Position numbers and translations under genes: made by a program. A stretch of 64,000 nt of DNA, from positions 1 through 64,000 of the IMG/VR virus record IMGVR_UViG_3300037067_013225; one strand, written 5' to 3'. The notes under the pieces are model-generated. The model worked only from the letters and a program-made list of their open reading frames with translations. It had not been told where the DNA came from and ran no database searches. The stretch comes from a virus (Duplodnaviria > Caudoviricetes). Shown here piece after piece: positions 763 through 38,432 of the stretch (position 1 is the stretch's first letter; every line of letters begins with the position of its first letter).

Positions 763-1119
763 ATGCAATACGCATATTATCTGCATGTAAATGGAGATCT
801 AATTTGCAAAAATGCGATATCTTATAATGATATCTGTGGCGATCTGGTACGTAAGAAATGGCTTCTCGATACCGATAAGCGTATAGATGCATGGCGGGTG
901 GTATTGGAAGCGCTTGGTTTGGGTTGCAATATAAATCGGGCAAAAGAATTAATCTCAAGATGGGAATTAACGAAAGAGGATTCCGGATATGCTATTGTTC
1001 ATCTATACGGAGAGCTTAATGAACCGTTGCGTGTTGGATTGCGCATATATATAGAGGGATGTCTGGGCGAAAATTATGATGAATTTTTCGATTGGTTGCA
1101 AGATAATCCTCTGCCATGA
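763..1119 (+). CDS. hypothetical phage protein
   Basis: GAGG SD; ATGA overlap with next gene. Confidence 0.7.
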   Translation: MQYAYYLHVNGDLICKNAISYNDICGDLVRKKWLLDTDKRIDAWRVVLEALGLGCNINRAKELISRWELTKEDSGYAIVHLYGELNEPLRVGLRIYIEGCLGENYDEFFDWLQDNPLP

Positions 1120-1409
1120 TAAATATCAGCTTTCAAGAGATACAAGATTTTGTTAATAGGTTGTGTTCCGTAACAACAACCGAAATAACCACATATACCT
1201 ATTCTCGATCAACACCTCCTGTATATTTTGTTATTCGTATTGATCAATTGACTTGGAGTGTCAAAATTAAACGAAATTATATATTTCCGACGGATGGAAA
1301 CGATTTATGTTGTCAGATATCTGAAGACAATGTGAGACGTTTTTGGAGCGATATATATGGGGCTATTGCGGAACTGATCAACATAGATTATGTGGAGATT
1401 GATTTTTGA
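1116..1409 (+). CDS. small protein with C-terminal EIDF tag
   Basis: ends DYVEIDF*; coupled to both neighbours. Confidence 0.8.
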   Translation: MINISFQEIQDFVNRLCSVTTTEITTYTYSRSTPPVYFVIRIDQLTWSVKIKRNYIFPTDGNDLCCQISEDNVRRFWSDIYGAIAELINIDYVEIDF

Positions 1410-1717
1410 TGAAGATAAACATACCTAATAATGCACGTATCGTTAATTTCAATATTGATCGCCAAGACGCATACCAAAGCGAATATGGTAGGGTAGTCTT
1501 TGAAGAGCTTGATCCGATACTAAGGGATTTCTGCGTATATATGAGTAACGATGAGAATGCATTGTTAGTTTTGTGTGTGAGAGATAAATCCGGTGTAATG
1601 TGGGAATGGGATACCAACCTACCGCCCGTTGCTAGAAGCACTAAAAAGAATATTGCCGAGGGAGTCAAATACATAAAGAGTATTTTTGAGGAAGAATTTG
1701 TAGAAATCGATTTCTAA
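1406..1717 (+). CDS. EIDF-tagged protein, paralog of 11082..11378
   Basis: ends EEEFVEIDF*; shares KINIPN, LDP.LR.FCV, EWDT, AEGVKYI with 11082..11378. Confidence 0.85.
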   Translation: MMKINIPNNARIVNFNIDRQDAYQSEYGRVVFEELDPILRDFCVYMSNDENALLVLCVRDKSGVMWEWDTNLPPVARSTKKNIAEGVKYIKSIFEEEFVEIDF

Positions 1718-1732
1718 AATTGGATTTATGAA

Positions 1733-2170
1733 ATGCCAAACCCTATAAAGAGAGTTTTTCATCACATTGTAAACTTATGGAACACACATCGTAGCAATTC
1801 AATGTGGCGACGTATAATGAGGGATCAATATGCCGTTAATACTTTCTTAATAATAGCGAATTCTAGATTGCTTGACGAAGCTCCCCTAAAACATGTGTGC
1901 TGTTATTTTGAAAATAAGAGATTGATGGTAACTGGGAATATTGCTATTGAGAATGTAGGTTATCTGGCGGGAACCCGTGACGTTCTCCTGCGTTATTTTG
2001 ATTTTTCTTATACAGATACCGTACAATTATATGACGCATTAATACGTAGACCTTCCGTAAAGATGAAGCATGCCATAATGGATAATTTTGTCTTGAAAGT
2101 GAATTGTGTAATTATGGATGCATGGACACTGCCTGTACCAGATATAAATCTGACAATGATTGATTTTTAA
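1733..2170 (+). CDS. IDF-tagged hypothetical protein
   Basis: ends NLTMIDF*. Confidence 0.75.
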   Translation: MPNPIKRVFHHIVNLWNTHRSNSMWRRIMRDQYAVNTFLIIANSRLLDEAPLKHVCCYFENKRLMVTGNIAIENVGYLAGTRDVLLRYFDFSYTDTVQLYDALIRRPSVKMKHAIMDNFVLKVNCVIMDAWTLPVPDINLTMIDF

Positions 2171-2361: not shown

Positions 2362-2390
2362 TTGCAAATCGCGAGTATTCATGGTATACT
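2362..2390 (+). promoter_or_regulatory. sigma70-type promoter, leaderless argS mRNA
   Basis: TTGCAA-17-TATACT; in-frame ATG at 2396, 5 nt after the -10, no SD. Confidence 0.7.
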
Positions 2391-2395
2391 GGGCT

Positions 2396-3811
2396 ATGCT
2401 TAACTCATTTCGTGCTTGGCTGGCTGGCGAAGGTCTTTCGGGTATCGCACGTCCATATATGCTGAACGATAATAATATCGGTTATTGCGTTAATGCATAC
2501 GGAATAGATCATCCATCGGTTACGAATGGCTATATTAATTATTTCATAGAGCCAAAAGCAGTTATAGATCATTTATCCGATTTTACCTACACGAAGCACA
2601 AAACGCAATCAAATATCGCAATCGAATATGGGCAATTAAATACGCATAAAAATCCCCATCTGGGGCATTTGCGCAATATTTGTATCGGAAAAGCATTATC
2701 GGCTTTATCTAATGACGTTTGCACCAATGTTACATATCTGGGCGATCATGGAATGCATGTGGCTAAATGTATGGTTGGGCTGCGTGCCGGAATAAAGGAT
2801 ATTCAGGAAGCATACGAATATGGAAATAATCAGTCCGAAGATATCGTATGTGATGAAATGGCTCATTGGAATGCGGAAGATATATTATATAAGGATAGTA
2901 GAGCCGAAAGCATCTCTAACATTCGCCATTTATTCGATTATTTTGGCGTGAAATTTTCCGACTATGCATACGAGAGCGATTTTTTGCAAAAAGATATCTT
3001 GATTGAATTATTATCTGATATCGGATATTGGGGAAACGATAAATATAGTGACTGTTTTGTTGTGGATACTGATTGTGGAACAATTGTTTTAATCAAGGCA
3101 GATGGTACACTGCTTTATGCCGGGAAAGATATTTTGTTGGCGCAAAACTATTCCAAGCGATATGATGAAGTTCTGTATGTCGTGGGACAAGAGCAAATTC
3201 AATATTTCAAACAATTGTCATTCATACTTAATAAACTTTTCCCGCAAACGAAAATAAAGCATATAGATTATGGGTTGGTTACTACCCAAGGCTCTAAAAT
3301 ATCTTCTCGTGCCGGTGCATCATCCGCATGGGAATTAATTGATCATCTAGAAAGTATCATATCCAAAACATATCATTGCGATATCGAAACCACTCAGATC
3401 ATTGTATCAAATATCATATATTATGAGATGCTTAAATCGGATTATAAAGCACCTGTTAAATTCATAGACGATGATCAATATATCAAAAATCAAGGGATTT
3501 CTTACATTATGTATCAGTATTGTAGAGCGAAAACCATTACAATGACGGATACTGATTTCGATACATTTATACCGGATACATCGTCGATTAAATTGCTAAG
3601 ATCTCTCCTATATAGTACGGATAATTTAGATTGTACAAATCCGCAAAAGCTATTTTCTACTTGGAGCGATATTGCGGCATCTTTTTCAAACTTCTATACA
3701 AATAATAGAATAAATGGGAATCCACAAGCCCTGGCTCTAACAAAAATATTTATAAATGTTAACAATATCCTAGCATACCTTCTAGATATACGTTTACCAG
3801 AGCGTATGTAA
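2396..3811 (+). CDS. argS: arginyl-tRNA synthetase (compact)
   Basis: IEYGQLNTHKNPHLGHLRN (HIGH region), YLGDHG, LIKADGTLLYAGKD, YVVGQEQ, KISSRAG, YIMYQYCR, FSNFY; start moved from 2381, which overlaps the -10 box. Confidence 0.9.
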   Translation: MLNSFRAWLAGEGLSGIARPYMLNDNNIGYCVNAYGIDHPSVTNGYINYFIEPKAVIDHLSDFTYTKHKTQSNIAIEYGQLNTHKNPHLGHLRNICIGKALSALSNDVCTNVTYLGDHGMHVAKCMVGLRAGIKDIQEAYEYGNNQSEDIVCDEMAHWNAEDILYKDSRAESISNIRHLFDYFGVKFSDYAYESDFLQKDILIELLSDIGYWGNDKYSDCFVVDTDCGTIVLIKADGTLLYAGKDILLAQNYSKRYDEVLYVVGQEQIQYFKQLSFILNKLFPQTKIKHIDYGLVTTQGSKISSRAGASSAWELIDHLESIISKTYHCDIETTQIIVSNIIYYEMLKSDYKAPVKFIDDDQYIKNQGISYIMYQYCRAKTITMTDTDFDTFIPDTSSIKLLRSLLYSTDNLDCTNPQKLFSTWSDIAASFSNFYTNNRINGNPQALALTKIFINVNNILAYLLDIRLPERM

Positions 3812-10097: not shown

Positions 10098-10685
10098 ATG
10101 ATGATTTACAAGCTTACAGATGAAAATAAGTGCGCTAGGGATGGTTATCACGCTTATGCTAGCCCGGAAATAGCAGTGTTGATGAATCCCGATCATGCTG
10201 ATTTTGATTCTTCTCGCTTGTTCGAAGCGGAAGGTTCTGGAGAATGCATGTCGGGGCCGTTAGAGCTAAGGTATCAAAACCTGACGTTACTTAAAGAGAT
10301 TCCGTTACCGGCATTCACTTTCAATCAGCGCATTTGGTTTGGCATTCAATGCGCGCTGAAAGTCTGTGACGATCCTGTGTTCATCTCGTGGGCTAAAAAC
10401 TGGATCAATGGAACGGATCGGAGCAAAGAGAGCGCCAAAGCTATTAGTGAGAAGTTTCTGTCTGCCGCTCGTGCCAATGCCGCCTATGTTAATAATGTTG
10501 CCTATAACGCTACTGCTGCTTGTGTTGCCGCTGCTTGTGCTATTAATACCGCCGCTTATTATGCTGCTTATGCTACTAATACCCACGCTTGTTATGCTGT
10601 TTGTGCCGTTCATTTTGCCGCGTGCGCTGATCCAAACATTGATTTTATAGATTTAGCCAAGCAAGCGTTAGCTTGGCAGGAATGA
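10098..10685 (+). CDS. Ala-rich paralog family member (untagged copy)
   Basis: YASPEIAVL, RLFEA, WFGIQCAL, WAKNWINGTDRS as in 22426, 26534, 28318; ends ALAWQE*. Confidence 0.85.
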   Translation: MMIYKLTDENKCARDGYHAYASPEIAVLMNPDHADFDSSRLFEAEGSGECMSGPLELRYQNLTLLKEIPLPAFTFNQRIWFGIQCALKVCDDPVFISWAKNWINGTDRSKESAKAISEKFLSAARANAAYVNNVAYNATAACVAAACAINTAAYYAAYATNTHACYAVCAVHFAACADPNIDFIDLAKQALAWQE

Positions 10686-10785: not shown

Positions 10786-11085
10786 ATGTCAACATTAATA
10801 CCCCTTTCTAAACTAAGTGGTTTATTTTTAAAGGCATTTCACGAATCCGGTTTCGTGCGCGATTTGCCCACGCATTTTGATCTTTATCTATGTGTACATG
10901 ATCAGAAGATATTGGGGATGGTGGATCTTTTCTCCGATAAGTGTGGAATATTTTTCGGCGATAATTTTGACGATTTGTATAAAACTTCCGTAAGTGTTTG
11001 GGCTAAAGATTTAAGCGAAGCGAAAGATATTTTCGATAAACGATATTTGATAAGCGATTCCTTATTCCAGGAGATTGATTTTTGA
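10786..11085 (+). CDS. EIDF-tagged small protein
   Basis: ends SLFQEIDF*. Confidence 0.8.
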   Translation: MSTLIPLSKLSGLFLKAFHESGFVRDLPTHFDLYLCVHDQKILGMVDLFSDKCGIFFGDNFDDLYKTSVSVWAKDLSEAKDIFDKRYLISDSLFQEIDF

Positions 11086-11378
11086 TAAAAATAAACATAC
11101 CAAACTATGCACAGATTACCGATCAATGTATTCAAACTGACTACGGCTTTGACGTTGCCGAAGGGCTTGATCCGCGATTAAGGTATTTCTGCGTATCTAT
11201 ATATCGCCGTGGTACCCACCCATCTTTATTCTTGTGTATGAGGGATAAAGATGGTGTAAATCGGGAATGGGATACCGGAATAGTATTCAATCCTTACGAT
11301 TACGAATGGAGTGTCGCCGAGGGAGTCAAATACATAGAACATCTCCTTGAAGAAGAATTGGTAGAAATCGATTTCTAA
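11082..11378 (+). CDS. EIDF-tagged protein, paralog of 1406..1717
   Basis: ends EEELVEIDF*; 3' junction DNA identical to that of 1406..1717. Confidence 0.85.
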   Translation: MIKINIPNYAQITDQCIQTDYGFDVAEGLDPRLRYFCVSIYRRGTHPSLFLCMRDKDGVNREWDTGIVFNPYDYEWSVAEGVKYIEHLLEEELVEIDF

Positions 11379-12269: not shown

Positions 12270-12298
12270 TTGACATTCGCGCTAGATTTTGTTATACT
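12270..12298 (+). promoter_or_regulatory. strong early promoter (TTGACAttcgcgct family)
   Basis: TTGACA-17-TATACT; same spacer start at 12622, 13436, 15223, 17515. Confidence 0.85.
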
Positions 12299-12346
12299 TG
12301 GCTTACGCTGAAAAACTTACAGCGTAATTATTCAAGGAGTCTTGAT

Positions 12347-12568
12347 ATGAGTGATGCATCGAAGGAAACTGTTCCCGCCGCTAAGGCCGCTACTAAGGTT
12401 TCGCGCGTTTATACGCGGAAGCCGTTGCATGTGGTTTACCGCGCGAATGGGGAAGTCGTTACCGTTGGGAACGAATTGGATGCTTTGCGTGCCGTTGCTA
12501 GCGATAAGACGCTTTCCAGCTTCGCGCTGTCACCCGGTGCTACTCTTCCCGCTATCGGTAAGAAGTAA
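12347..12568 (+). CDS. small basic Ala-rich early protein, monocistronic
   Basis: own promoter, AAGGAG SD, own terminator. Confidence 0.8.
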   Translation: MSDASKETVPAAKAATKVSRVYTRKPLHVVYRANGEVVTVGNELDALRAVASDKTLSSFALSPGATLPAIGKK

Positions 12569-12591
12569 CAGGCGCTAAGCGCTTCCAATTG

Positions 12592-12616
12592 ATCCCGCTT
12601 CGGCGGGATTTTTTTT
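12592..12616 (+). terminator. intrinsic terminator
   Basis: ATCCCGC-TTCG-GCGGGAT plus T run. Confidence 0.9.
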
Positions 12617-12621
12617 ATTCC

Positions 12622-12650
12622 TTGACATTCGCGCTTGAATGTGATACAAT
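12622..12650 (+). promoter_or_regulatory. strong early promoter
   Basis: TTGACA-17-TACAAT with extended TG. Confidence 0.85.
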
Positions 12651-12674
12651 AGCATTATTCAAGGAGCGGTAAAA

Positions 12675-13439
12675 ATGAGCTTAACCAAAAGCGCCATGCT
12701 TGAGAATGCGCAAGCATCCGGCTATGATATCGTAAAATCCAAGGTCATGGATCACAATACACTAAGCTTCATTTCGTCCGATGGCGCAAGCCATGTACAA
12801 TTGCACAATACCGTTATTTTTTCGCGCTTACCGGATGATACCTTAGTATTGAATACCGGAAAATGGAAAACCGTAACCACGAAAGATAGACTAAACAAAT
12901 GTCTTAATCGGGTAACGCGTGAATTAGGTTATTCACATGTATCTATCGGATCAATCAATGGCATGTGGTATTTGTATGATGGGGATAACAAAATTCCATT
13001 TTATGATGGTATGCGTTTTCAATTGGGTAATTATTCCCACTTGGCAACCGAAAGTATAAGTAAATTAAATGAGGTAAAGGCTCTAAAAAAGAAACTGGAT
13101 GCCTATATCAAGGCATGTAAGGAATATCTAAACACTAATAAGGTATTTCCCATGCCGAATGGTGGGGATTGCTGGTATTGTAGTATGGTTACAACCGATG
13201 GCAAATCATTAGGGGAAGCTGTATCCGATACCAGTCATTTGGTAAATCATTTGGATGAATCGTACATATTTGGTTCATTGGTTTACAATGCGTTAAAGGA
13301 TTGTAACGCCGGTCAATACTGGTATTCTGTTGCTTTCGATATCAATCAAGCCAATTATTCCGGCATTGAATACCGCATAAATCAGATATTGTGCAGATTC
13401 ATTCGCAAATATCTTAAGAAGCGGCTAGGTTTAGCTTGA
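12675..13439 (+). CDS. early protein related to 16881..17222
   Basis: LNTGKWKTVTTKDRLN versus LDNGGYHTATTKARMN; C-terminal GGDCWYC. Confidence 0.8.
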   Translation: MSLTKSAMLENAQASGYDIVKSKVMDHNTLSFISSDGASHVQLHNTVIFSRLPDDTLVLNTGKWKTVTTKDRLNKCLNRVTRELGYSHVSIGSINGMWYLYDGDNKIPFYDGMRFQLGNYSHLATESISKLNEVKALKKKLDAYIKACKEYLNTNKVFPMPNGGDCWYCSMVTTDGKSLGEAVSDTSHLVNHLDESYIFGSLVYNALKDCNAGQYWYSVAFDINQANYSGIEYRINQILCRFIRKYLKKRLGLA

Positions 13440-13464
13440 CATTCGCGCTTAAATGCGCTATAAT
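13436..13464 (+). promoter_or_regulatory. strong early promoter, identical to 15223..15251
   Basis: TTGACAttcgcgcttaaatgcgcTATAAT at both sites. Confidence 0.9.
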
Positions 13465-14634
13465 GGATCATCATTAAAGGAACGGACATGTCATTAGAAC
13501 CGGATGAAGATTCCCTATGCAGTGAAGATCATATTCACTGGTATCAACACGGTAAGCTAGTTTTAACACTGGATGAAGATTTAACTAGCAAGGAACGCAA
13601 TCACGATTTGCTTAAATATATGCAAAGCGTTAATTTCTACGTTAATTGCTTTTGGATTAGCGATCATGGAAACGCACATCTTATTAATTTAGCACACTAG
13701 ATTAATTTGGAGGTTATTATGTGTAGATATTGTAACGAGAAAACAACCACGCTGGTAACGCTAGCGCAAGCGGATTATTTAGCGTGTGAGGATAAATATA
13801 CCGATATTCCGGTATGTGACCGGTGCGCGAATCAAATCACTAGTACATTCATCGCCACACGCGAAGATATCGAATGCAAGCTATAGCCGTGATCGTTTTA
13901 ATTGGCGCGGTTGTTATATTGATTGCGTTATTTATAACGCTAGTATTTATCGAAATGGGAAGGATATAATGCGCAAATCTTTAGAGCAAAGCTGTATTTA
14001 TTTCGTACATTATGGCTTACCGGGATGTTTGCCGAATTATTCCTATGCGTGCGGATCAATGGCGGAAGCGAATCGCTATATTGAAGAAATGCGCGCGGAA
14101 TATGACGATTCCGATACGGAAAACAATTATACTGATCCGTGCGATTTTGATATTGCGGAAAGTACAATATCGCAAGCGGTAAAGGATTGCGATATCGAAA
14201 CATCCAGCAAAACAACCAAAAGGGAAATTTTGCAAAAAATTAACGAGATGGTGTAATAATGATTGTTGGGTTTAAAATTGGCGCATGGCATTTTAATTTA
14301 ATTGATTATTACCGCGACAAATATACCATATCATTGGGTATCTTGAATATAATTAATTATAAGATACTTGACTTCGATTTATTTCATGTGCTTATAGGTG
14401 CATATGATGGCGTAAAATTGCGCCAAGATCATAAAATGAGTTTCAAGGGATTTAGTATATTGTCATTTCGCCATAACAAATATGATATAATGGCATTAAT
14501 TGCTATTTATCCCGGCTGGTATCGAAGTATGCACTATTATTTTAGCGCAAAATTGCGCAATTTAGTAAGCATATTTTTTATTCCGCTTGTATATATTTGG
14601 GATAGCTATTATTTTCTGCGCAAAGACTAAGGGA

Positions 14635-15222: not shown

Positions 15223-15251
15223 TTGACATTCGCGCTTAAATGCGCTATAAT
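15223..15251 (+). promoter_or_regulatory. strong early promoter
   Basis: TTGACA-17-TATAAT. Confidence 0.9.
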
Positions 15252-22425: not shown

Positions 22426-22962
22426 TCAGAAATCAATTTCTTGGAATTCTCTCTCAAACCACAACGCTTGCAACGCAATATCAACGAAGTTGATTCCAGG
22501 ATAGATCCTTCCCGCCGCGTACATGGCAGCAGTAGCGGCCCACGAAACCTCACCGCAACTAACCGCATTGGTAATCCAATAGGCGGCATTGACATCAATA
22601 TGGCGAAGATTCTGATAAACGGCATCGGCGGTTTCTTTGCTTCGATCAGCCCCATTGATCCAGTTTTCCGCCCACGACACAAACACAGGTTTGTTGTACA
22701 CGGCTAGCGCGCATTGAATGCCGAACCAAATGCGCTGATTTGATGTGTAATACGGCAGATGAATCTCTCTGTGCAGTTTATAATCACTTATCGTAGAGCA
22801 TAAAACCACAGAAGGCGTGTCACAGGATGCCTCAAAAAGCCTCAGCCCCAACGTTGTACCCCAACGCAGAGGCCGAAAAAGTGCCGCTATTTCCGGACTG
22901 GCGTACACGTAACTTTGACGATTAGACATATGTTCGTCTGTAAGTACGTACACGCACATCAA
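22426..22962 (-). CDS. Ala-rich paralog family member, EIDF-tagged
   Basis: YASPEIA, WFGIQCAL, WAENWINGADRS; ends EREFQEIDF*. Confidence 0.85.
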   Translation of the reverse strand: MMCVYVLTDEHMSNRQSYVYASPEIAALFRPLRWGTTLGLRLFEASCDTPSVVLCSTISDYKLHREIHLPYYTSNQRIWFGIQCALAVYNKPVFVSWAENWINGADRSKETADAVYQNLRHIDVNAAYWITNAVSCGEVSWAATAAMYAAGRIYPGINFVDIALQALWFEREFQEIDF

Positions 22963-23294
22963 AAGTCAATTTCCATTAATTCGGCTTCTTCCCGCGCCCG
23001 CTCTATAATAGTTTTAATTAATGCGGAACATTGCCTACATTGTAGTGGATTCCCATAAAGATAGTCGTCTACCTTAATTCGCGTATTAAATGCGATAATT
23101 TGATCGTTATCTCTAAAATATATCCCTACAAAAGTAGGGGCGTCAAATTGCCGATCTAATCTGATATCGTTTCCGAAAATATTTCCAACTTGGTCCCTCA
23201 CCATATTCATCACCTCCCAACATGGTCCTTCGAAGAGGTGATGGGAAAAGATGCCGGGTTCGAGCATGGTTCCAGATATATTCCATTTTCCCAT
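22959..23294 (-). CDS. EIDF-tagged protein (G-D/N-DIR family)
   Basis: restart at ATG 23294 overlapping the upstream TGA; IFGNDIRL; ends ELMEIDF*. Confidence 0.8.
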   Translation of the reverse strand: MGKWNISGTMLEPGIFSHHLFEGPCWEVMNMVRDQVGNIFGNDIRLDRQFDAPTFVGIYFRDNDQIIAFNTRIKVDDYLYGNPLQCRQCSALIKTIIERAREEAELMEIDF

Positions 23295-23578
23295 CAAAAA
23301 TCGATCTCCGTCCAACGAATGCCGCGAAAGAATGATTCCGCTTCTTCCCGCGACTTGGCGACAAAATTTGCTGCGTCGAAAGCGCCACTTGTTTGAAACC
23401 ATTCCAAAGGTCCGCAAAAACAATAATAATCCGCGATTATACTAGGATCGAAAAAATCGGTACGGACATAGTAAGCCCCACAAATTTTATCTTCTTCCAC
23501 GCAATACAACCACCAATCATTGACCCCCGATGTTCCGGCCTTCATTTCATCCGATAATTGATCGTATCTTAATAACAT
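23294..23578 (-). CDS. EIDF-tagged protein, paralog of 27476..27793
   Basis: MLLRYDQLSDEMK start; ends IRWTEIDF*. Confidence 0.8.
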   Translation of the reverse strand: MLLRYDQLSDEMKAGTSGVNDWWLYCVEEDKICGAYYVRTDFFDPSIIADYYCFCGPLEWFQTSGAFDAANFVAKSREEAESFFRGIRWTEIDF

Positions 23579-23588: not shown

Positions 23589-23930
23589 TTAGAAATCGAT
23601 TTCCTGCAATTCTCTGTATGTTTGCTCTAGATATGCCTTGGCCTCATCCACGGAAGAAAAATATCTAATTGTTCGAAAACTACTCATCTCTCTCAAATCC
23701 CTTCCTTCGTAAACTGCAATACGGTGAGAAATCGTTCTTTTGCAATCCGGTGCAATAATATATGCTACGACACCATTTGCATAGAAGAAAAATGATCTTT
23801 CGTTTGGCTGTACTACATTCTCCCAATATTTCAGATACGTGGAACCAGCAACACCCGCTCCGATATCCCAATGTATCGGATCTGTATCGAGAATATTCTG
23901 TGGTAATTCCTCATAAGTACAATATGTCAA
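23589..23930 (-). CDS. EIDF-tagged protein
   Basis: ends RELQEIDF*; N-terminus CTY.E resembles 26235..26537. Confidence 0.8.
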   Translation of the reverse strand: MTYCTYEELPQNILDTDPIHWDIGAGVAGSTYLKYWENVVQPNERSFFFYANGVVAYIIAPDCKRTISHRIAVYEGRDLREMSSFRTIRYFSSVDEAKAYLEQTYRELQEIDF

Positions 23931-24241
23931 AAATCCACCTCCATTAATGATTTATTTCTAGCCCGGAAGATGATCTCGTATATTTCATTCATAGCATCGA
24001 TATCTTCAGCAATATTCTCATGATATGCTATAGCAGTATCATGTATAATTGCCGTATCTCTATCCATACGGAAATGCAACCTTATCGTCCCAGATAATAC
24101 ATAGTGATATATCCTAATATCGTCGCCAAAAATATCCCCATAACGCGACACCATGACACGCGACAAAGATCCGGGTGGTAGCAAAGTCCTAAGCTCCCAC
24201 GTTGTAACTCGTTCAATTTCTCCGGAAATGTTCCAATCCAT
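23927..24241 (-). CDS. EVDF-tagged protein (G-D/N-DIR family), leaderless
   Basis: WNISG, IFGDDIRI; ends SLMEVDF*. Confidence 0.8.
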   Translation of the reverse strand: MDWNISGEIERVTTWELRTLLPPGSLSRVMVSRYGDIFGDDIRIYHYVLSGTIRLHFRMDRDTAIIHDTAIAYHENIAEDIDAMNEIYEIIFRARNKSLMEVDF

Positions 24242-26234: not shown

Positions 26235-26537
26235 TTAAAAATCTATCATAACATACTCTTTATCAGTAATAGCAGCAAAGTATGTTTTGGCCTGTTCGTA
26301 TGTTACTGTGTCGTCATCACCAAACATCACACAATCTGCACATTCGATTTCCTCGATAGTATGGCCCAAATATATGCGTCCACTCTGTCCCGCCCAATTC
26401 CAAACATGAAACATGCCATACAAAATACCACACTCAATCCAAAAATGATAATGATCCATATCGACAATAACCCAAGCCTTACTTGTTATATTTTCTGGCA
26501 GTTTTTCTTGCATCTCTGAATATGTACAAAACATCAA
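26235..26537 (-). CDS. IDF-tagged protein
   Basis: ends KEYVMIDF*. Confidence 0.8.
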   Translation of the reverse strand: MMFCTYSEMQEKLPENITSKAWVIVDMDHYHFWIECGILYGMFHVWNWAGQSGRIYLGHTIEEIECADCVMFGDDDTVTYEQAKTYFAAITDKEYVMIDF

Positions 26538-27076
26538 AAATCGATCTCCACGAATTCTTTTAAGTCAAAGCTTAGAGCAGCAATGGCGATATCGGTGAAG
26601 TTTATGCTCGGAGTGGCGTGCGCAGCCCAAACAGCAGCATAAGCAACATGAGCGACATCAGCAGCATGAGCAGCGGCAGTATAGGAAGCAGACGCAGCAG
26701 AATCAGTCCAAAGCTTCTCTGAAACAGCTTGAGCAGTTTTAAAGCTTCGATCAGTCCCATCAATCCAGTTTTCCGCCCACGACACAAACATAGGATTGTC
26801 ACACACGGCTAGCGCGCATTGAATCGCAAACCACTGACACTGATTCGGCGTATAGTACGGCACATAGGTCTCTCGCAAAAGTGTGAACTCACCGCTAGAA
26901 CGTATAGGATGGTTCATCTCTCCCAATGCTTCGAAAATCCTGAAATGTTCGAATTCCTCGTATATAGGGGTCGAAAGTACGGCCAATTCCGGGCTGGCGT
27001 AAGCAAAACCGGAACGTTTTATGCCGATTTCCCACAAACCATCATTGTTCATGTTTTCGTCTGTAATTACATACAT
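26534..27076 (-). CDS. Ala-rich paralog family member, EIDF-tagged
   Basis: YASPELAVL, WFAIQCAL; ends FDLKEFVEIDF*. Confidence 0.85.
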   Translation of the reverse strand: MYVITDENMNNDGLWEIGIKRSGFAYASPELAVLSTPIYEEFEHFRIFEALGEMNHPIRSSGEFTLLRETYVPYYTPNQCQWFAIQCALAVCDNPMFVSWAENWIDGTDRSFKTAQAVSEKLWTDSAASASYTAAAHAADVAHVAYAAVWAAHATPSINFTDIAIAALSFDLKEFVEIDF

Positions 27077-27122: not shown

Positions 27123-27479
27123 TTAAAAATCAATCTCCACTAACTGAATATCGTATAATTTCATAATCAAATCGTAAAGTCTGGTTGCATGTTTTTTCTG
27201 CTCGGACGATTCAAATACATCTTTTTCGAATAGCTCGTTATCTTTAACAGATGTAACATATTCCAGATATCTATCTCCATCTTTAACGAATATTGCAACA
27301 TAATTCGCCTCACCAAAACCATACGACGAGGGACTATATATTCTAATATCGTCGCCTAAAATATCTCCAAAATATTTTTTCATCATCCATGAATACGTAT
27401 TATGGTGCCAATTCAGTGAATGATGAACTATCGGCTCTATTAATTTATTTAATTCATTGATATTTAATTTGCTCATCAA
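27123..27479 (-). CDS. EIDF-tagged protein (G-D/N-DIR family)
   Basis: FGDILGDDIRIY; ends IQLVEIDF*. Confidence 0.8.
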   Translation of the reverse strand: MMSKLNINELNKLIEPIVHHSLNWHHNTYSWMMKKYFGDILGDDIRIYSPSSYGFGEANYVAIFVKDGDRYLEYVTSVKDNELFEKDVFESSEQKKHATRLYDLIMKLYDIQLVEIDF

Positions 27480-27793
27480 AAATCCACCATAATGAGTTCT
27501 CTATCCATCCAGTTAATATCGCGAAAAAATAGCTTTGCATCATCTAATGACTCGGCAATGAAATCGGCGGTATCGAAAAAAATTCTCCGCGATTTCATAA
27601 GATTAACAAATCTTTCGCTAGATCCCATGAAACAATTAAATCGTGTCGTAAAACGATCCATATTGTATAATCCGGCTGAAGGATAACAAAACCCATAAAT
27701 CTCCTCTTTTACGGCAAACAACAGCCCTCCTGTATTGCACCCTTCCACCATGCATTTCATTTCATCCGATAATTGATCGTATCTTAGTAACAT
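27476..27793 (-). CDS. VDF-tagged protein, paralog of 23294..23578
   Basis: MLLRYDQLSDEMK; ends RELIMVDF*. Confidence 0.8.
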   Translation of the reverse strand: MLLRYDQLSDEMKCMVEGCNTGGLLFAVKEEIYGFCYPSAGLYNMDRFTTRFNCFMGSSERFVNLMKSRRIFFDTADFIAESLDDAKLFFRDINWMDRELIMVDF

Positions 27794-27803: not shown

Positions 27804-28091
27804 TTAGAAATCGATTTCCGTTAATTGATCATATAAATGTTGATCATATGTATATGCATGATATAATTCATATATTCTATATTGCGCATCTTCTAAAGTT
27901 TTGTGCTTCCCACCATATGGCTCTAAAGCTCCCGCCATTCGAACCTCATATTTACCATCCACGTGCAGTTCTTTTATAATCCAACCTACCATTTTTCCCT
28001 TGCATCTACATGCACTGACCAACCACCTTCGTGGTATCGCACTCGGTCCGTCGAGTTCTTCAAATTTGATATCTCCAAGTTGCTTTAGCAT
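27804..28091 (-). CDS. EIDF-tagged protein, leaderless
   Basis: restart at 28091 behind TTGACT-17-TATAAT-6nt-ATG; ends DQLTEIDF*. Confidence 0.8.
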   Translation of the reverse strand: MLKQLGDIKFEELDGPSAIPRRWLVSACRCKGKMVGWIIKELHVDGKYEVRMAGALEPYGGKHKTLEDAQYRIYELYHAYTYDQHLYDQLTEIDF

Positions 28092-28317: not shown

Positions 28318-28893
28318 TCAAAAGTCAATCTCCACGAATTCTTTTAAATCAAAGCATAGAGCCTTGAGGGCGATATCAGTGAAATTTATGCTTGGATTAA
28401 CTTGTGCAGCAGACATTGCCGCATAAGACGCAGCATCGGTAAGACTATCCAAAGCATGGCCTGGATCTAGGAAATCAGAAGCGGAATTAACAGCATGCAT
28501 GGCACTTCCCACACCGGATGTGGATATGATACCAAAAAGCTTCATGAAAATAATTAGGGCGGTTTCTTTGCTTCGATCCGTTCCATTGATCCAGTTTTCC
28601 GCCCACGACACGAACACAGGATCATCACACACGGCTAGCGCGCATTGAATCGCAAACCAAATGCGCTGAACAAGAGTGAATTCCGGCACATAAGTTTCTC
28701 TCACAAAAGCGAACCTGCCCAACAAACGTATAGGACCACTCATTTCGCCCGATACTTCAAAAATCCTAGGGTGATCGAATGTCTCGTATGTGGGTTGTAT
28801 GAGTACGGCCAATTCCGGACTAACATAGGCATAACGATTACTGTGCGTATTCAAAACGCCATTGCAATTCACCATCACATACATACTCATCAA
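28318..28893 (-). CDS. Ala-rich paralog family member, EIDF-tagged
   Basis: YVSPELAVL, WFAIQCAL; ends FDLKEFVEIDF*. Confidence 0.85.
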   Translation of the reverse strand: MMSMYVMVNCNGVLNTHSNRYAYVSPELAVLIQPTYETFDHPRIFEVSGEMSGPIRLLGRFAFVRETYVPEFTLVQRIWFAIQCALAVCDDPVFVSWAENWINGTDRSKETALIIFMKLFGIISTSGVGSAMHAVNSASDFLDPGHALDSLTDAASYAAMSAAQVNPSINFTDIALKALCFDLKEFVEIDF

Positions 28894-29402
28894 AAATCAA
28901 TCTCCGTTAATGCTACATCTAATTTCTCAATTATAATTGAAAGAACTTTATTTTTTATCTCAGATATCTCATTTTCCATAATTCTACGATATTTCGGCAG
29001 AAATCTAAATCCCGCTTTCGGATACATAATCCAAAATCCTTTAGGCATGATATCGCGACCATCGCAAAGATAAAGCTTCGGATCTTTCGGAACTTGCGCA
29101 TAAGTTCGAGTTGATGCATTTACCGATGTCCATACATATGGAAGAAATATTTTTATATCATCGAAACATTTTCCGATTAAATTCACATCAGCTAAATTAG
29201 TCGCGATATGTTTTGTGCCAAGATCTTTTGTATCGATAGATATTATTTGTTTTTCTTTAGACGTTTTAGTGAAAAAGAAATCCAGCCAAACGATTTCATT
29301 GCGTATAGTTTCTCTGAACTCGCAACCGATGTCAAACCAACCCACTACGCCTTCACGGACAAAGTGGGCGAAACTCGTGTACTTCGGATTCAGTTTTGCC
29401 AT
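28890..29402 (-). CDS. EIDF-tagged protein, leaderless
   Basis: restart at 29402 behind TTGACA-17-TAAAAT-5nt-ATG; ends VALTEIDF*. Confidence 0.8.
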   Translation of the reverse strand: MAKLNPKYTSFAHFVREGVVGWFDIGCEFRETIRNEIVWLDFFFTKTSKEKQIISIDTKDLGTKHIATNLADVNLIGKCFDDIKIFLPYVWTSVNASTRTYAQVPKDPKLYLCDGRDIMPKGFWIMYPKAGFRFLPKYRRIMENEISEIKNKVLSIIIEKLDVALTEIDF

Positions 29403-29688: not shown

Positions 29689-29925
29689 GTGTCCGGAGAC
29701 GTTTACGTGATCTTGCCCCAGACCACCAGTTTGGTATTACATGATGCTGGCGAAAAATATTTGGAAATTTCCTCCGCAAGTGGTGCTTTTTTTAAAGTTA
29801 ATTTACTGGATGAGAAATTGCGATATATTTCCGAACAATATATAATCAAATCGGTTATGGACAAAGATATCCATGATAATAAATTAATAAAAATCAATAA
29901 CGATTTGTTTACTGTCGATTTCTGA
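29689..29925 (+). CDS. VDF-tagged small protein, leaderless GTG
   Basis: TGG-TATAAT-6nt-GTG; ends DLFTVDF*. Confidence 0.7.
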   Translation: MSGDVYVILPQTTSLVLHDAGEKYLEISSASGAFFKVNLLDEKLRYISEQYIIKSVMDKDIHDNKLIKINNDLFTVDF

Positions 29926-32576: not shown

Positions 32577-34109
32577 ATGATGGCAAAATTCAACAAAACG
32601 TCTACGATTCCGGTAGCTCAGAATAAAGCTGGCGGCAAAGCATACAATTTGGATTACAAATCAGAAATCGCAACGATTTTATTATCGTCTTTTCTGAATA
32701 ATCAATATTATGCAGCCGGTTCGGAAGTAATTAATAGAATTAAAGAAATCGCACACGATCCTAAAACGGATAAAATGTTCTTGGCAAAAACTGCAATTTA
32801 TGCTCGAAATGAATTCGGTATGCGATCTGCAAGTCATGTTTTAATGGCGGAACTTGCATCGGAAATGACGATGAATCCGCTTTACAAATATGCCGTCAAG
32901 GCAGTATGTCATCGTCCGGATGATATGACGGAAATTCTCTCGTATTATTGGGCGAATGGTGGCTTAAAGAAACCGCACCACGCTCTACTAAAAGGTCTAG
33001 CATTATCTGTGCATAATTTTAACAGATATCAGCTAGCCAAATACAAGGCTGCATCAAAGGATGTTTCATTGATCGATCTAATTCGCATCACACATCCCTT
33101 GTCCAAGAATATTCTAAAGCTATTACCACCGAATGATCTCGTATTGTTGGATGAGCGGCGCAATGCAATTACGGATTTGATTTATGATCATCTGAAGGAT
33201 GAAACATACCAGACAAAGAAAACCGTTATTGGTCAAAGTGATTCTTCCGACGAAGAAAAGAAATCCATGACGGCAGAAATGTGGTCCGATTTTGTTAACA
33301 ATCCGAAGGTAGAATATTTTGCGTTATTGCGCAATCTAAATAATATCGCAGAGCAGAGCGATTCTTCAACGTTAACAAAGGCACTGGAAGTTCTAACGAA
33401 CGAACAACGCATCAAGCGCAGCATGGTTTTGCCGTTTAGATTTGCGGTAGCGCGCAAGCTATTTATGGGCGATATTATGGGACGCGGAAAGAAGGCCAAT
33501 TTTTCTGCGCAGATTATTTCCGCGCTAGATAAAGCGATGGACATTTCATTGAGCAATGTTCCGGAGTTTGCAGGAAAAACATTGGTTGCGGTCGATGTAT
33601 CGGGAAGTATGTCTGCGGATGCAACGAATGCACACATGTCATGTAGCGAGATTGCTGGATTATTTGCGGCTGCTCTATTCAAAAAGAATGCCGATCTCAT
33701 GTCTTTTGATACGCATGGTCGCTATGTTAGGGTCTCTCCAAATGACAGTATTTCTACCATTGCGGAGAAGATTTATAAATCCGGTTCCGGTGGCACATCA
33801 TTTGCGGCGATTTTTGAAACCGCATCTAAGGTATATGATAGGGTGATTATTCTCTCTGATATGCAGTCATGGAAAGACGATACTCAGTACGGATTGAAAG
33901 AATATCGTGAGAGATTTAGTGCCGATCCGTATATGTATTGCGTGGATTTGGCCGGACACGGTACGACACAATTTAAGAACAAGTTGATTACTTTATCTGG
34001 TTGGAGCGAGAAGCTTTTTGATTTGATTAAGCAGGCCGAACAAGATCCGCAAGTAATGATTCATGCGATTGAATCTGTGAGTTTTGGTAGAGCCAGCACC
34101 GCAAAATAG
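32577..34109 (+). CDS. Ro60/Rsr TROVE-domain RNA-binding protein
   Basis: NKAGGKAY, YARNEFGMRS, RPDDMTE, YQLAKY, YFALLRNL, VLPFRF; vWA VAVDVSGSM, GGT, IILSDMQ. Confidence 0.93.
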   Translation: MMAKFNKTSTIPVAQNKAGGKAYNLDYKSEIATILLSSFLNNQYYAAGSEVINRIKEIAHDPKTDKMFLAKTAIYARNEFGMRSASHVLMAELASEMTMNPLYKYAVKAVCHRPDDMTEILSYYWANGGLKKPHHALLKGLALSVHNFNRYQLAKYKAASKDVSLIDLIRITHPLSKNILKLLPPNDLVLLDERRNAITDLIYDHLKDETYQTKKTVIGQSDSSDEEKKSMTAEMWSDFVNNPKVEYFALLRNLNNIAEQSDSSTLTKALEVLTNEQRIKRSMVLPFRFAVARKLFMGDIMGRGKKANFSAQIISALDKAMDISLSNVPEFAGKTLVAVDVSGSMSADATNAHMSCSEIAGLFAAALFKKNADLMSFDTHGRYVRVSPNDSISTIAEKIYKSGSGGTSFAAIFETASKVYDRVIILSDMQSWKDDTQYGLKEYRERFSADPYMYCVDLAGHGTTQFKNKLITLSGWSEKLFDLIKQAEQDPQVMIHAIESVSFGRASTAK

Positions 34110-34156: not shown

Positions 34157-34159
34157 GTT

Positions 34160-35521: not shown

Positions 35522-37467
35522 CCAGATTAAAGACAGTCGAATTTCATATCCCAACACTAGCTGCATTGCCAGACAACACTCTAACAGCCATGCAGCAAAT
35601 AACACTATATGTGCCGGAAGTTGATAACGTTGTAACATGGAAATCATGCGTTATTAACGTCTCATTCAAACAACTATCTGGACACGTTTTGGGAAATATT
35701 AATAGCCGTCAAATTGATGTTAGCGTTAATGGCGCTGCCGCAACGAGCTATATCAATGCGAATCTTTATACTGCTTCTGGAGAGAATATTTGTCTATTTC
35801 ACGGTGCGAATTGCACCGATCATTTTACGTCTAATTGGACGGAAAATCCCACAGCTACATTGGATATCTCTGTCCTGATTGACGATGCATCTGCTACTCC
35901 CGTATGGGGTGGCGTGGATGCCACGATATATTTAACTTACGAATATGACGATACATCAACCACTCAGATTAAGACCGTTTATATTCCGTTAGATGCTCCG
36001 GTAGGAGCCTTTGGGACATCCAAACCCGGCACACCCACTGCAACAATTGCGGCCCTAGATACTGATTTACCAGAATATAGTAAGGTTATCCGGAGTATGT
36101 ATATCGTGTGTCAGGGTAACACGGGGATAACGGCAACGACGGATTATATTGTGAATATGCAAATAGATACATATACTGCGTTTGCATCGCCCACATTAGA
36201 GGGGGGATTGGCATCAGCAAAATGGGAGCGGAATATAGCATCACTGTTATATTATGATGGTACTCCATCGGTACAGGGAATCGGGATGGATACTTCCGCA
36301 TCTCATGGATTCTATCTTTGGGCCAATATAGCCAAACTTAATCATCAGCAAGTATATATGGTAGTCACTTATGAATTCGATGCTTATGATACAAATGATG
36401 TTTTTGTTTCTGTGATGTTGCCAATGAAAATTGATGCACAAATGGGAATGGCTGCTTCTGATTTCCAACGTGGGTTGTCGGAATTGTGGATTGAAGAGGA
36501 AAATATCTCCGTAAAACAAATTGCCTGTTATGCTTTTTGGGATCAGAGTAATGTACTTAGTTCTCTAAATATGCGTATTGGAACGGGGGATTTTGTAACT
36601 TATACCGATTCGGCAGCTACCGTTTGTGGTTCGGTTGGTTGTATGGTGCGAAATGATAATGCTACAATATTGGCAAGGGGGAAAAATCTATTCAATTACG
36701 ATGTGTATCTCACACCTACAAATGCGATATGGGGTTGGGCTGTCAATGGTTTCTGGATCATTAACTATATCGGAAACAAACCTGTGGCTGGTTATGGAGC
36801 AGCCAATCATACCGTTAGATGGAATTTTATCGCACCCTATAGTGGTACTTCGATTGCCACACAAACAAAAACCACCACATCTGCGATTGCCCCAGAAATA
36901 CCCGAAACCGAATATTGGCTAAGCAACGCAGGCACATCCTATACCTATTATACGGACGCTGCCGGTTCCGTAACATATTTGCAGGTATCAATAGAAAATA
37001 CTGCTGATGAGAGCGGGGTGCAGTGGATTCCTGTATTTTTAAATGCAAGTGTTCCAGATTCGGAAACTGGACTACATTCTGTTTTTGCAGACTGTAGTTT
37101 GTATCTCAAACGAGAGCCAAACGATCCGACAAACTGCGATATTATTAAAGCGGCGTGTTTAGATATAGAGACTCCTCGTAGATGGGATGTATTGCATCTT
37201 GGTGGTAGCATATGGGAGTCTCTGGATATGTGGTTTACATATCACACCAACATGTATGAGGTGGCTGGAAATATAACGCAGAGTGCGGGTGGTACTATAA
37301 ATATTCAGGTATGGGATAATGTGACTAAGGAATTAAGGGCAACAACAACGATTGTGGGTGACGGAGCGTATTCCGTTTTAATATACGATAGTGCTCATGA
37401 TATATTTGTGGAGGCTCTGGAAGATTCAACGCATATCGGTCGTTCAAATACAGGGGAAGCAGAATAA
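35518..37467 (+). CDS. probable virion structural protein
   Basis: 649 aa, Thr/aromatic-rich, coupled to the fibre gene. Confidence 0.6.
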   Translation: MTRLKTVEFHIPTLAALPDNTLTAMQQITLYVPEVDNVVTWKSCVINVSFKQLSGHVLGNINSRQIDVSVNGAAATSYINANLYTASGENICLFHGANCTDHFTSNWTENPTATLDISVLIDDASATPVWGGVDATIYLTYEYDDTSTTQIKTVYIPLDAPVGAFGTSKPGTPTATIAALDTDLPEYSKVIRSMYIVCQGNTGITATTDYIVNMQIDTYTAFASPTLEGGLASAKWERNIASLLYYDGTPSVQGIGMDTSASHGFYLWANIAKLNHQQVYMVVTYEFDAYDTNDVFVSVMLPMKIDAQMGMAASDFQRGLSELWIEEENISVKQIACYAFWDQSNVLSSLNMRIGTGDFVTYTDSAATVCGSVGCMVRNDNATILARGKNLFNYDVYLTPTNAIWGWAVNGFWIINYIGNKPVAGYGAANHTVRWNFIAPYSGTSIATQTKTTTSAIAPEIPETEYWLSNAGTSYTYYTDAAGSVTYLQVSIENTADESGVQWIPVFLNASVPDSETGLHSVFADCSLYLKREPNDPTNCDIIKAACLDIETPRRWDVLHLGGSIWESLDMWFTYHTNMYEVAGNITQSAGGTINIQVWDNVTKELRATTTIVGDGAYSVLIYDSAHDIFVEALEDSTHIGRSNTGEAE

Positions 37468-37586
37468 TGGCATTTGATATCGTATTAAGAGATAACGGAT
37501 CAAATTCTTTTGATATCTCTTTATCTGATGCGCCAACCGCCGAAGAGACATTAATTTTATTGTGGAATAATGAGGGATTGATTTGA
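37467..37586 (+). CDS. 39-aa ORF not in the ORF track
   Basis: TAATG coupling; MAFDIVLRDNGSNSFDISLSDAPT...; overlaps next gene. Confidence 0.5.
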   Translation: MAFDIVLRDNGSNSFDISLSDAPTAEETLILLWNNEGLI

Positions 37587-37966
37587 ATTACGATATTTTT
37601 GTAGAGCCGCTGGTTGATTATCAGATAATTCCGGCACCTATTGCGCTTTATTCAGATTTATGTTTTCAAAAACGGCCATTTGGACGTTTCTCGTACAATA
37701 AAATAATTCCTCAATATACCGGAATTAAACTAATTCGCAGCCTAGATGATCAATATATGTGGGTTGGCACAGCCGGATTGTGGTCCGCTAAAGTCTGGAA
37801 GAACCAACCATACACAAGTGGCGATGCCGGTTTCGGCTACGAAATTCTAAAACGAGCATCCGTGGTGCTCAAGGGGCATCAAACCTACGGTGTCATGTCT
37901 GATATTCCGGCGTTGGAGCAATTTATTAATAAATCGATATATGAGATGCGCAACCAATATCGGTAA
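37583..37966 (+). CDS. hypothetical protein
   Basis: 127 aa, coupled to upstream ORF. Confidence 0.55.
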   Translation: MNYDIFVEPLVDYQIIPAPIALYSDLCFQKRPFGRFSYNKIIPQYTGIKLIRSLDDQYMWVGTAGLWSAKVWKNQPYTSGDAGFGYEILKRASVVLKGHQTYGVMSDIPALEQFINKSIYEMRNQYR

Positions 37967-38015
37967 TTTTCCGTAACCGCTTGACATCGGCACGATGTTG
38001 TGGTATTATTAGACC

Positions 38016-38432
38016 ATGCAGCGATTGCGGTATGACGGTTTCGAGGTTGAGTTCGTTTATGATGGCGATCAAAATCTCTTGATCGAATTTGTCGAAATGG
38101 GAGATCGAAGAGATCTCATTGTCGCTCTACGTTATTGGGGAGGCATCCCTCGTTGGACTGGTAAAGTCGGGCAAGTAGCCATACAGGGGAATCAGGCATT
38201 CGTTAAGTGTGATTTCGCACTTGCGCGGAGTTCCGATCCTCTAGGTCAAAGTAAGAACAAAGACAATCATGCATTGCATGAGTTGATTAGATTTGTTCAC
38301 GATGGAGTTTATACAAAGAAGTCTGGTACCATTGCCAAACCATCAGGCTCTATTCCATTTCGTATTACTTCTGGATATGATTTGGAAAAGAGTGGATTTA
38401 GGAATGAAGAATTACAATGGGTAGATTTTTAA
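38016..38432 (+). CDS. VDF-tagged protein, leaderless
   Basis: TTGACA(37981)-17-TATTAT-6nt-ATG; ends EELQWVDF*. Confidence 0.8.
   Translation: MQRLRYDGFEVEFVYDGDQNLLIEFVEMGDRRDLIVALRYWGGIPRWTGKVGQVAIQGNQAFVKCDFALARSSDPLGQSKNKDNHALHELIRFVHDGVYTKKSGTIAKPSGSIPFRITSGYDLEKSGFRNEELQWVDF

What the first reader, a model, noticed from the sequence alone, without database searches (positions are those of the whole stretch)
1116..38432. Nineteen small proteins from unrelated families share one C-terminal tag, EIDF-stop
Seen: ORFs at 1116, 1406, 1733, 10786, 11082, 22426, 22959, 23294, 23589, 23927, 26235, 26534, 27123, 27476, 27804, 28318, 28890, 29689 and 38016 all end in [LFYW]-x-[EMTW]-[IV]-D-F-stop, mostly EIDF. 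They fall into at least four paralog families plus singletons, on both strands, mostly in coupled arrays. Codons vary synonymously (GAA/GAG, ATT/ATC/ATA, GAT/GAC, TTT/TTC; TAA/TGA), which favours selection on the peptide. The tag is modular: three Ala-rich paralogs carry it, the fourth (10098) does not. No core enzyme or structural gene here has it. Five tagged units start at leaderless sigma70-type promoters (24241, 28091, 29402, 29689, 38016). Known analogues: acidic tails ending in Phe are docking peptides (SSB DDDIPF, T7 gp2.5). Inference: a common address label sending a diverse protein library to one receptor, such as capsid loading/ejection, a replisome or RNAP hub, or a protease. I know of no described phage system with this tag.
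Basis: partly seen in the sequence, partly recalled or inferred. Interest (0 to 1): 0.92.

Follow-up and report, generated by a model that had tools for sequence, protein, structure and literature searches.

The report
Shared C-terminal tag on phage proteins
One in six genes of this uncultured large phage encodes a small, otherwise unrelated protein ending in the same short peptide, and two related phages use their own version of that peptide. It looks like an undescribed address label, probably for delivering anti-defence and other accessory proteins, and what reads it is still unknown.

Summary
Confirmed, and larger than reported. All 19 ORFs end as stated. The 202.7-kb phage genome has 49 such genes of about 300 (0.1 expected), in about 37 families. 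The DNA spellings follow genome codon usage and 31 of 47 are not start/stop-coupled, so the peptide is what is selected. Two relatives carry cognate tags: D-L-E-[IV] (17 genes of a complete 221-kb genome) and D-I-[ED]-[IL] (17 of 58 genes of a third lineage). Homologous BRCT-type proteins switch tag with lineage. Outside DUF7666 homologues lack it. One tagged protein belongs to the anti-Thoeris Tad3 family. A MoxR AAA+/vWA-metallopeptidase pair and a ClpP-like protease occur in both complete genomes, but also in tag-free phages, so neither is diagnostic. Best reading: a lineage-specific address peptide read by one receptor (about 0.8), most likely for loading into the head, as T4's capsid-targeting sequence does (about 0.3). 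I found no paper describing it. This scan has noted similar shared C-terminal tags, with other sequences, in several unrelated phages.

The parts
1116..1409 (+). Tagged ORF, 97 aa, ends YVEIDF
1406..1717 (+). Tagged ORF, about 102 aa, ends FVEIDF; paralogue of 11082
1733..2170 (+). Tagged ORF, 145 aa, ends LTMIDF
10098..10685 (+). Untagged DUF7666 (PF24703-related) paralogue; stops at the family's natural end and marks where the 8-9-residue tag is appended in its paralogues
10786..11085 (+). Tagged ORF, 99 aa, ends FQEIDF
11082..11378 (+). Tagged ORF, 98 aa, ends LVEIDF
22426..22962 (-). Tagged DUF7666 paralogue, ends FQEIDF
22959..23294 (-). Tagged ORF, ends LMEIDF (likely start overlaps the upstream stop; longest frame reaches 23423); family with 23927 and 27123
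23294..23578 (-). Tagged ORF, 94 aa, ends WTEIDF; family with 27476
23589..23930 (-). Tagged ORF, 113 aa, ends LQEIDF
23927..24241 (-). Tagged ORF, 104 aa, ends LMEVDF; leaderless sigma70-type promoter with -35 at 24275
26235..26537 (-). Tagged ORF, 100 aa, ends YVMIDF
26534..27076 (-). Tagged DUF7666 paralogue, 180 aa, ends FVEIDF
27123..27479 (-). Tagged ORF, 118 aa, ends LVEIDF
27476..27793 (-). Tagged ORF, 105 aa, ends LIMVDF
27804..28091 (-). Tagged ORF, about 95 aa from the leaderless start, ends LTEIDF; promoter -35 at 28126
28318..28893 (-). Tagged DUF7666 paralogue, ends FVEIDF
28890..29402 (-). Tagged ORF, about 170 aa from the leaderless start, ends LTEIDF; promoter -35 at 29436
29689..29925 (+). 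Tagged ORF, 78 aa, ends FTVDF (variant); extended -10 box just upstream
38016..38432 (+). Tagged ORF, 138 aa, ends LQWVDF (variant); leaderless promoter with -35 at 37981
50107..51495 (-). Terminase large subunit (context only; used to find the relatives)
57807..63162 (+).

Best explanation
Step 1 (shown by sequence): about 49 small, soluble, mostly acidic accessory proteins carry an appended 7-9-residue C-terminal peptide, hydrophobic-x-acid-hydrophobic-acid-hydrophobic-COOH. The peptide is selected as protein, is uniform within a genome and has a lineage-specific tip (E-I-D-F here, D-L-E-I/V and D-I-E-I/L in relatives). Step 2 (inferred, about 0.8): a free C-terminal strand with this pattern is bound by one receptor, whose pocket changes with the lineage. 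Step 3 (inferred, about 0.3 overall): the receptor is phage-encoded and loads the tagged proteins into the assembling head, so that a varied kit of counter-defence and host-takeover proteins enters the next cell with the DNA. This is the logic of T4's internal proteins, with the signal at the other end. Adding the tail by recombination would give any newly acquired gene immediate delivery, which would explain strong selection on so many unrelated genes. The confidence given is for all three steps together.
For: 49 ends against 0.10 expected, in 37 families. Free synonymous variation. Nine of 11 DUF7666 paralogues are tagged and none of 109 outside homologues is. A blind scan returns the same acid-hydrophobic-acid-hydrophobic ending as the top pattern in this genome (25 families vs 0.52) and in G001 (15 vs 0.52). 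A third lineage has 17 of 58 genes tagged against 0.08 expected. Homologous proteins swap tag version: 158898 vs G001 131838, E about 1e-12; 164315 vs G001 29929, same position after primase, weak local match E 0.002. None of 48 tagged proteins has a transmembrane segment, against 23 of 164 untagged small ORFs. No structural gene is tagged. The cargo includes a Tad3-family protein (E 3e-28); Tad3 inhibits Thoeris ThsB (PMC13728456). T-even internal proteins are a diverse defence set sharing only a capsid-targeting sequence (PMC3012670; PMC12373910).
Against: No evidence of packaging was obtainable, and no head protein was shown to bind the tag. Tagged proteins are acidic (median pI 5.1 with the tag removed), whereas T4 internal proteins contact DNA through lysines. 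A 474-aa radical-SAM enzyme, BRCT-type proteins in all three lineages and a ligase near-match fit a cytoplasmic or replisome address as well. T4's signal is N-terminal. Only three lineages could be examined, one of them as a fragment. Four small genes beside the polymerase of a fourth lineage are untagged.
Confidence: 0.3

Rival explanations
1. The reader is the phage's MoxR AAA+ ATPase with its vWA-metallopeptidase partner (genome 161486-163036 and 159209-160858, with a 224-aa unknown gene between). The vWA MIDAS site grips the acidic tail, MoxR remodels the protein and the zincin domain may clip it. This could itself be the loading step, so it overlaps the best explanation.
For: The module is conserved in G000 and G001 and seen in two more lineage fragments. 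MIDAS and HEXXH are invariant and the vWA fold is supported by Foldseek. Tagged genes lie beside it. vWA peptide capture, and zincin plus small variable proteins with conserved C-terminal peptides, are proposed in PMC7159879. The pair is proposed to act in virion assembly in PMC7824862. Earlier scan notes on other tagged phages point the same way (leads only).
Against: The vWA-peptidase occurs without any detectable C-terminal tag in RaK2, Atu_ph07 and N4. A complete 333-kb phage with the same MoxR/vWA subfamily also has no tag. So 4 of 4 outside carriers are tag-free.
Confidence: 0.22
2. The tag is a degron or protease-docking tail. It sends early proteins to the phage's ClpP-like protease (genome 187811-188431) or to a host C-terminus-reading protease, clearing them later in infection.
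For: ClpP-like genes are present in both complete genomes (two in G001), with Ser and His motifs in the G000 copy and tagged genes beside them. Hydrophobic-x-hydrophobic-COOH is the class II PDZ ligand pattern and resembles the IGF loop that docks on ClpP (own knowledge). An HslV/proteasome-beta-like gene is coupled to tagged gene 69334.
Against: ClpP-like genes are also found in tag-free RaK2, Atu_ph07, XacN1 and G003. The HslV-like gene was not found in G001, and no PDZ_2 match was found in either genome. Timed removal seems a weak reason for a precise 7-residue motif on 37 families (inference).
Confidence: 0.18
3. The tag mimics an SSB tail or clamp-binding peptide and docks the proteins on a replication or repair hub of host or phage.
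For: E-I-D-F parallels the D-I-P-F end of E. coli SSB (own knowledge). BRCT-type proteins are tagged in all three lineages and the DNA ligase ends YEIDI. Several tagged genes lie among replication genes.
Against: The terminal Phe is replaced by I, V or L in relatives. The register does not fit QL[SD]LF. The polymerase, helicase, primase and RecA are untagged. No beta-clamp family was found in either genome. The host is unknown.
Confidence: 0.13
4. The ending is a DNA- or RNA-level feature (ribosome-binding site with overlapping start, or a recombination repeat) that only looks like a peptide.
For: GGAG in the Glu codon is commoner when the next gene is coupled (13 of 19 vs 6 of 17). In the third lineage many tags end in an ATGA overlap.
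Against: 31 of 47 tagged genes are not coupled, 55 coupled untagged genes show no motif, and there are 30 DNA spellings. Of 53 DNA matches to the motif in any frame, 49 are the ends of the tagged ORFs. The amino-acid pattern is kept across lineages whose DNA differs.
Confidence: 0.04

Closest known systems
T-even internal proteins (Ip1-3) and their capsid-targeting sequence (PMC3012670; PMC12373910)
   Same: Unrelated small accessory proteins share only a short terminal peptide; the set includes anti-defence proteins.
   Different: Here the tag is C-terminal, on about 49 genes spread over the genome rather than a few at two loci. The cargo is acidic and packaging is not shown. The phage has an HK97-type portal and capsid and a DnaE polymerase, so it is not T-even.
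MoxR AAA+ with metallopeptidase-vWA pair of group 2.2 jumbo phages (PMC7824862)
   Same: The same domain pair is encoded here and in the relatives.
   Different: No substrate tag is described for it, a third conserved gene lies between the two here, and four other phages with the vWA-peptidase have no detectable tag.
FxSxx-COOH-type peptide-processing modules of vWA-MoxR ternary systems (PMC7159879)
   Same: A zincin peptidase occurs with small, rapidly diverging proteins that have a more conserved C-terminal peptide, in a vWA-MoxR context.
   Different: Those are single precursor genes next to the peptidase in cellular loci. Here dozens of dispersed, apparently folded proteins carry the tail, and its motif is none of the four types described.
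Acidic C-terminal docking tails of SSB and T7 gp2.5; clamp-binding peptides (own knowledge)
   Same: A short acidic and hydrophobic peptide at a free C-terminus.
   Different: The tail sits on 37 accessory families rather than on a hub or on replication enzymes, and the last residue varies by lineage.

Membership tests
T-even internal proteins / capsid-targeting sequence | Unrelated small proteins share only one terminal peptide | tested here: met
   49 proteins in 37 families after removing the tag
T-even internal proteins / capsid-targeting sequence | The shared signal is N-terminal | tested here: not met
   N-termini differ; in the alignment of 74 tagged proteins only the first Met and an Asp of the tail are near-invariant
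T-even internal proteins / capsid-targeting sequence | Members include inhibitors of host defence | tested here: inconclusive
   One member matches Tad3 at E 3e-28; its activity is untested and most others match no family
T-even internal proteins / capsid-targeting sequence | Packaged in the head and ejected with the DNA | not testable with these tools
   Needs virion proteomics
Phage MoxR + metallopeptidase-vWA pair | MoxR-type AAA+ gene | tested here: met
   PF07726, PF07728 and PF20030 on genome 161486-163036
Phage MoxR + metallopeptidase-vWA pair | Neighbouring protein with N-terminal HEXXH zincin and C-terminal MIDAS vWA | tested here: met
   Motifs invariant in three lineages; DUF2201_N match E 2e-4, under the cut-off; vWA structures top the fold search
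Phage MoxR + metallopeptidase-vWA pair | As reader of the tag: the pair goes with C-terminal tags | tested here: not met
   No tag in RaK2, Atu_ph07, N4 or G003, which carry the vWA-peptidase
Phage MoxR + metallopeptidase-vWA pair | As reader of the tag: physical capture of the tail at MIDAS | not testable with these tools
   Needs a binding assay
FxSxx-COOH peptide-processing modules (Kaur 2020) | C-terminal peptide of FxSxx, RxD, poly-acidic (four or more contiguous acids) or FtsH-associated type | tested here: not met
   The tag alternates acid and hydrophobic residues; the FtsH-associated motif was not available to compare
FxSxx-COOH peptide-processing modules (Kaur 2020) | Radical-SAM/SPASM maturase and VMAP or FtsH ternary component | tested here: inconclusive
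   One radical-SAM gene, itself tagged, with no SPASM hit; ternary components were not searched for
SSB / gp2.5 acidic C-terminal tails | Invariant terminal Phe after an acidic run | tested here: not met
   Phe in all 49 here, but I, V or L in almost all tags of two relatives
Beta-clamp-binding motif | QL[SD]LF or QLxLxL register | tested here: not met
   Position profile is one residue out of register, and E is commoner than Q
Beta-clamp-binding motif | A cognate clamp | tested here: inconclusive
   PF02768 not found in G000 or G001; the model of the 224-aa gene is poor; host unknown
Protease degron (ClpP, HslV, PDZ proteases) | A cognate protease in every tagged genome | tested here: inconclusive
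   ClpP-like in both complete genomes but also in tag-free phages; HslV-like only in G000; no PDZ_2 match
Protease degron (ClpP, HslV, PDZ proteases) | The tag shortens the half-life of a reporter | not testable with these tools
   Needs a stability assay

The most novel reading that the evidence does not exclude
A clade of large myoviruses has a genome-wide C-terminal protein-addressing code. One phage-encoded reader, of a kind not yet described, recognises a lineage-specific acid/hydrophobic tail and collects dozens of unrelated counter-defence and takeover proteins for delivery, so that any new gene joins the kit by acquiring the tail. The tag would then also mark out which orphan genes are effectors.
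Probability: 0.3. Interest if true: 0.9.

Novelty: new variant of a known kind. Interest (0 to 1): 0.72.

Why it matters
Most genes of large phages are small orphans with no handle on their function. A tag on a sixth of the genes sorts them into one functional class by sequence alone, and one member already belongs to an anti-defence family. The class is therefore a ready list of candidate inhibitors of bacterial immunity. If the tag loads proteins into heads, it would be a C-terminal counterpart of T4's capsid-targeting sequence on a much larger scale. The three lineage versions give a built-in specificity test: each reader should prefer its own tail.

Tried and rejected
Complex prediction of the vWA-peptidase (with Mg and Zn) and the last 40 residues of a tagged DUF7666 protein returned no verdict (score 0.00); it is not used as evidence either way. 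Folding the 224-aa gene between MoxR and vWA to test a sliding-clamp idea gave a poor model (pLDDT 45) with no clear match (best Z 5.3); the Atlas gave no usable hit for it or for the 317-aa shared unknown. DNA-pattern scans for the tag gave nothing in IMG/VR or only chance matches, none at an ORF end. In metagenomes the only in-frame hit was a bacterial GDSL lipase that happens to end the same way. Terminase, capsid and MoxR scans found only one complete relative in IMG/VR and none in GTDB genomes. Three JGI relatives (terminases of 96% and 54%, MoxR of 65%) had no retrievable DNA. Pfam and PHROGs name almost none of the tagged proteins. The HslV-like gene was dropped as universal reader because it was not found in G001. 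Paper searches for the motif or a like system found nothing relevant; the library is open-access only. The tag detector looks only at the last 8 residues, so a weak, helical or N-terminal tag in the control phages could be missed.


Full report
1. Observation. All 19 ORFs are present and end as described. The window is the first 64 kb of a 202,677-bp phage contig (CheckV 91%). It has a terminase, HK97-type portal and capsid, DnaE, RecA and DnaB, and a sigma factor. Genome-wide, 49 of about 300 genes end in [IV]DF, while the next commonest terminal trimer occurs three times. The expectation from internal frequency is 0.10. The consensus is about [KR]-E-[LFYW]-x-[EM]-[IV]-D-F. With the tail removed the proteins form 37 families, and the 19 in the window form 13. 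They are small (median 113 aa), acidic (median pI 5.1) and lack membrane segments.

2. Peptide, not DNA. Codon choice in the tag broadly follows the genome. There are 30 spellings of the last five codons in 47 genes, 31 of the 47 are not coupled to a next gene, and 55 coupled untagged genes show no motif. Where a next gene is coupled, the Glu codon more often supplies GGAG, so the ribosome-binding site borrows the tag but does not explain it. The tag is an appended module. The Ala-rich family is DUF7666-related (PF24703 on its homologues); 9 of 11 paralogues here carry the tail after the family's natural end, and none of 109 outside homologues does.

3. Relatives carry their own version. The terminase led to a complete 220,861-bp relative, G001 (terminase 49%, capsid 62%). 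It lacks the IDF ending, but 17 genes end in [DE]-[LIV]-[DEN]-[IVFL], mostly D-L-E-I/V, against 0.44 expected. That pattern was chosen after looking. A blind scan with families collapsed nevertheless returns acid-hydrophobic-acid-hydrophobic as the top ending in both genomes (log10 p -32 and -17; internal control windows -4 to -6) and finds nothing comparable in five cultured phages. A third lineage (Logan SRR30862820, terminase 46%) has 17 of 58 examined genes ending mostly in hydrophobic-x-D-I-[ED]-[IL], against 0.08 expected. One homologous pair swaps tags clearly: G000 158898 ends FVEIDF and G001 131838 ends VDLEI (E about 1e-12). These two look BRCT-like by eye, and a Pfam BRCT protein of the third lineage ends LDIDL. 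A second pair shares position after the primase gene with a weak local match (E 0.002). A tail that is uniform within a genome, differs between genomes and changes on the same protein is what one lineage-specific reader would produce. That step is an inference.

4. Cargo. Few tagged proteins have names. Those that do are DUF7666, BRCT, one radical-SAM enzyme and a Tad3-family protein at genome 187115-187513 (E 3e-28). Tad3 inhibits the Thoeris sensor ThsB (PMC13728456). No structural gene and none of polymerase, helicase, primase or RecA is tagged; the ligase ends in a near-match. Many tagged genes lie behind host-type sigma70 promoters, some leaderless, but so do untagged genes.

5. Both complete genomes encode a MoxR AAA+ with a HEXXH/MIDAS vWA partner and ClpP-like proteases. 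The literature proposes peptide capture by such vWA domains and describes zincins with small proteins that have conserved C-termini (PMC7159879); it also proposes a role in virion assembly for the phage pair (PMC7824862). Earlier notes of this scan name the pair for other tagged phages. I tested the link. RaK2, Atu_ph07 and N4 have the vWA-peptidase and no tag. A complete 333-kb phage with the same MoxR/vWA subfamily and a ClpP-like gene has no tag either. The pair is therefore not diagnostic, although it could have gained this job in one clade. ClpP-like genes likewise occur without tags. An HslV-like gene is confined to G000. No PDZ_2 or beta-clamp family was found.

6. Most likely mechanism. 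I put about 0.8 on a peptide address read by one receptor. Among purposes I rank loading into the head first (0.3). It is the one known case of a diverse defence kit united only by a terminal peptide (PMC3012670; PMC12373910), and it gives each new gene an immediate gain from acquiring the tail. Capture by MoxR/vWA (0.22, overlapping with loading), a degron (0.18) and hub mimicry (0.13) follow; a DNA-level artefact is nearly excluded (0.04). Against loading: the cargo is acidic, it includes a 474-aa enzyme, and nothing here shows packaging.

7. Novelty. Terminal address peptides are a known kind, so I file this as a new variant. It is not a member of the T4 internal-protein family (the signal is at the other end) nor of the SSB-tail or clamp-motif classes (tip and register differ). 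I found no paper on this tag or on a genome-wide C-terminal tag in phages (open-access library only). This scan has recorded shared C-terminal tags of other sequence in several unrelated phages. Those are unchecked notes, not support. What this case adds is a very sharp motif, three lineage versions, a tag swap on homologous proteins, a tagged member of a known anti-defence family, and a negative test of the MoxR/vWA link.

Noticed in passing
whole genome G000 (window included): The heptamer GGCTCTA/TAGAGCC occurs 186 times against about 13 expected from trimer frequencies; G001 has no comparably enriched heptamer. Chi-like or protein-binding site; no link to the tag was tested.
   Followed up: partly
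window 2381-3811 (+): Phage-encoded arginyl-tRNA-synthetase-like protein (PF00750); no tRNA genes in the window.
   Followed up: no
window 32577-34109 (+): TROVE/Ro60 protein with a vWA domain, a second MIDAS-type domain in this genome; no blastp match in G001.
   Followed up: no
L001:6693-7220 (+) (genome 69693-70220): HslV/proteasome-beta-like protein with an N-terminal Thr, coupled to a tagged gene; weak PF00227 match; not found in G001.
   Followed up: partly
L001:7972-19945 (genome 70972-82945): Block of about 11 genes that look like sugar-nucleotide and glycosyltransferase genes, 46-70% identical for most between G000 and G001, more conserved than many core genes. A Mom-family protein lies at genome 64322-65173. 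Possible DNA or surface modification.
   Followed up: no
L005:17812-18486 (-) (genome 160812-161486): Conserved 224-aa gene between MoxR and the vWA-peptidase in all lineages of the clade seen; no family and no confident fold.
   Followed up: partly
window 12270-18400 (+) and genome-wide: About 35 near-consensus sigma70 promoters with an extended -10 box, several near-identical repeats in the early region and many leaderless.
   Followed up: partly
L007:10460-11884 (+) (genome 193460-194884): The tagged radical-SAM protein also begins with an R-x-G-F-x-T-N-S-S-S motif like the N-terminal tag that other notes of this scan link to radical-SAM enzymes.
   Followed up: no
L164:18723-19138 and L145:1168-3202: Several tagged proteins of the third lineage are related 60-90-aa proteins beginning M-K-x-G-D-x-V, suggesting small SH3/KOW-like barrels.
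   Followed up: no
L036-L039: A bacterial GDSL lipase ends in the exact G000 consensus and overlaps a kynureninase-like gene; treated as coincidence.
   Followed up: partly
L165:2491-4700: Two adjacent ORFs of a MoxR-bearing viral contig end in the same nine residues, probably paralogues.
   Followed up: no
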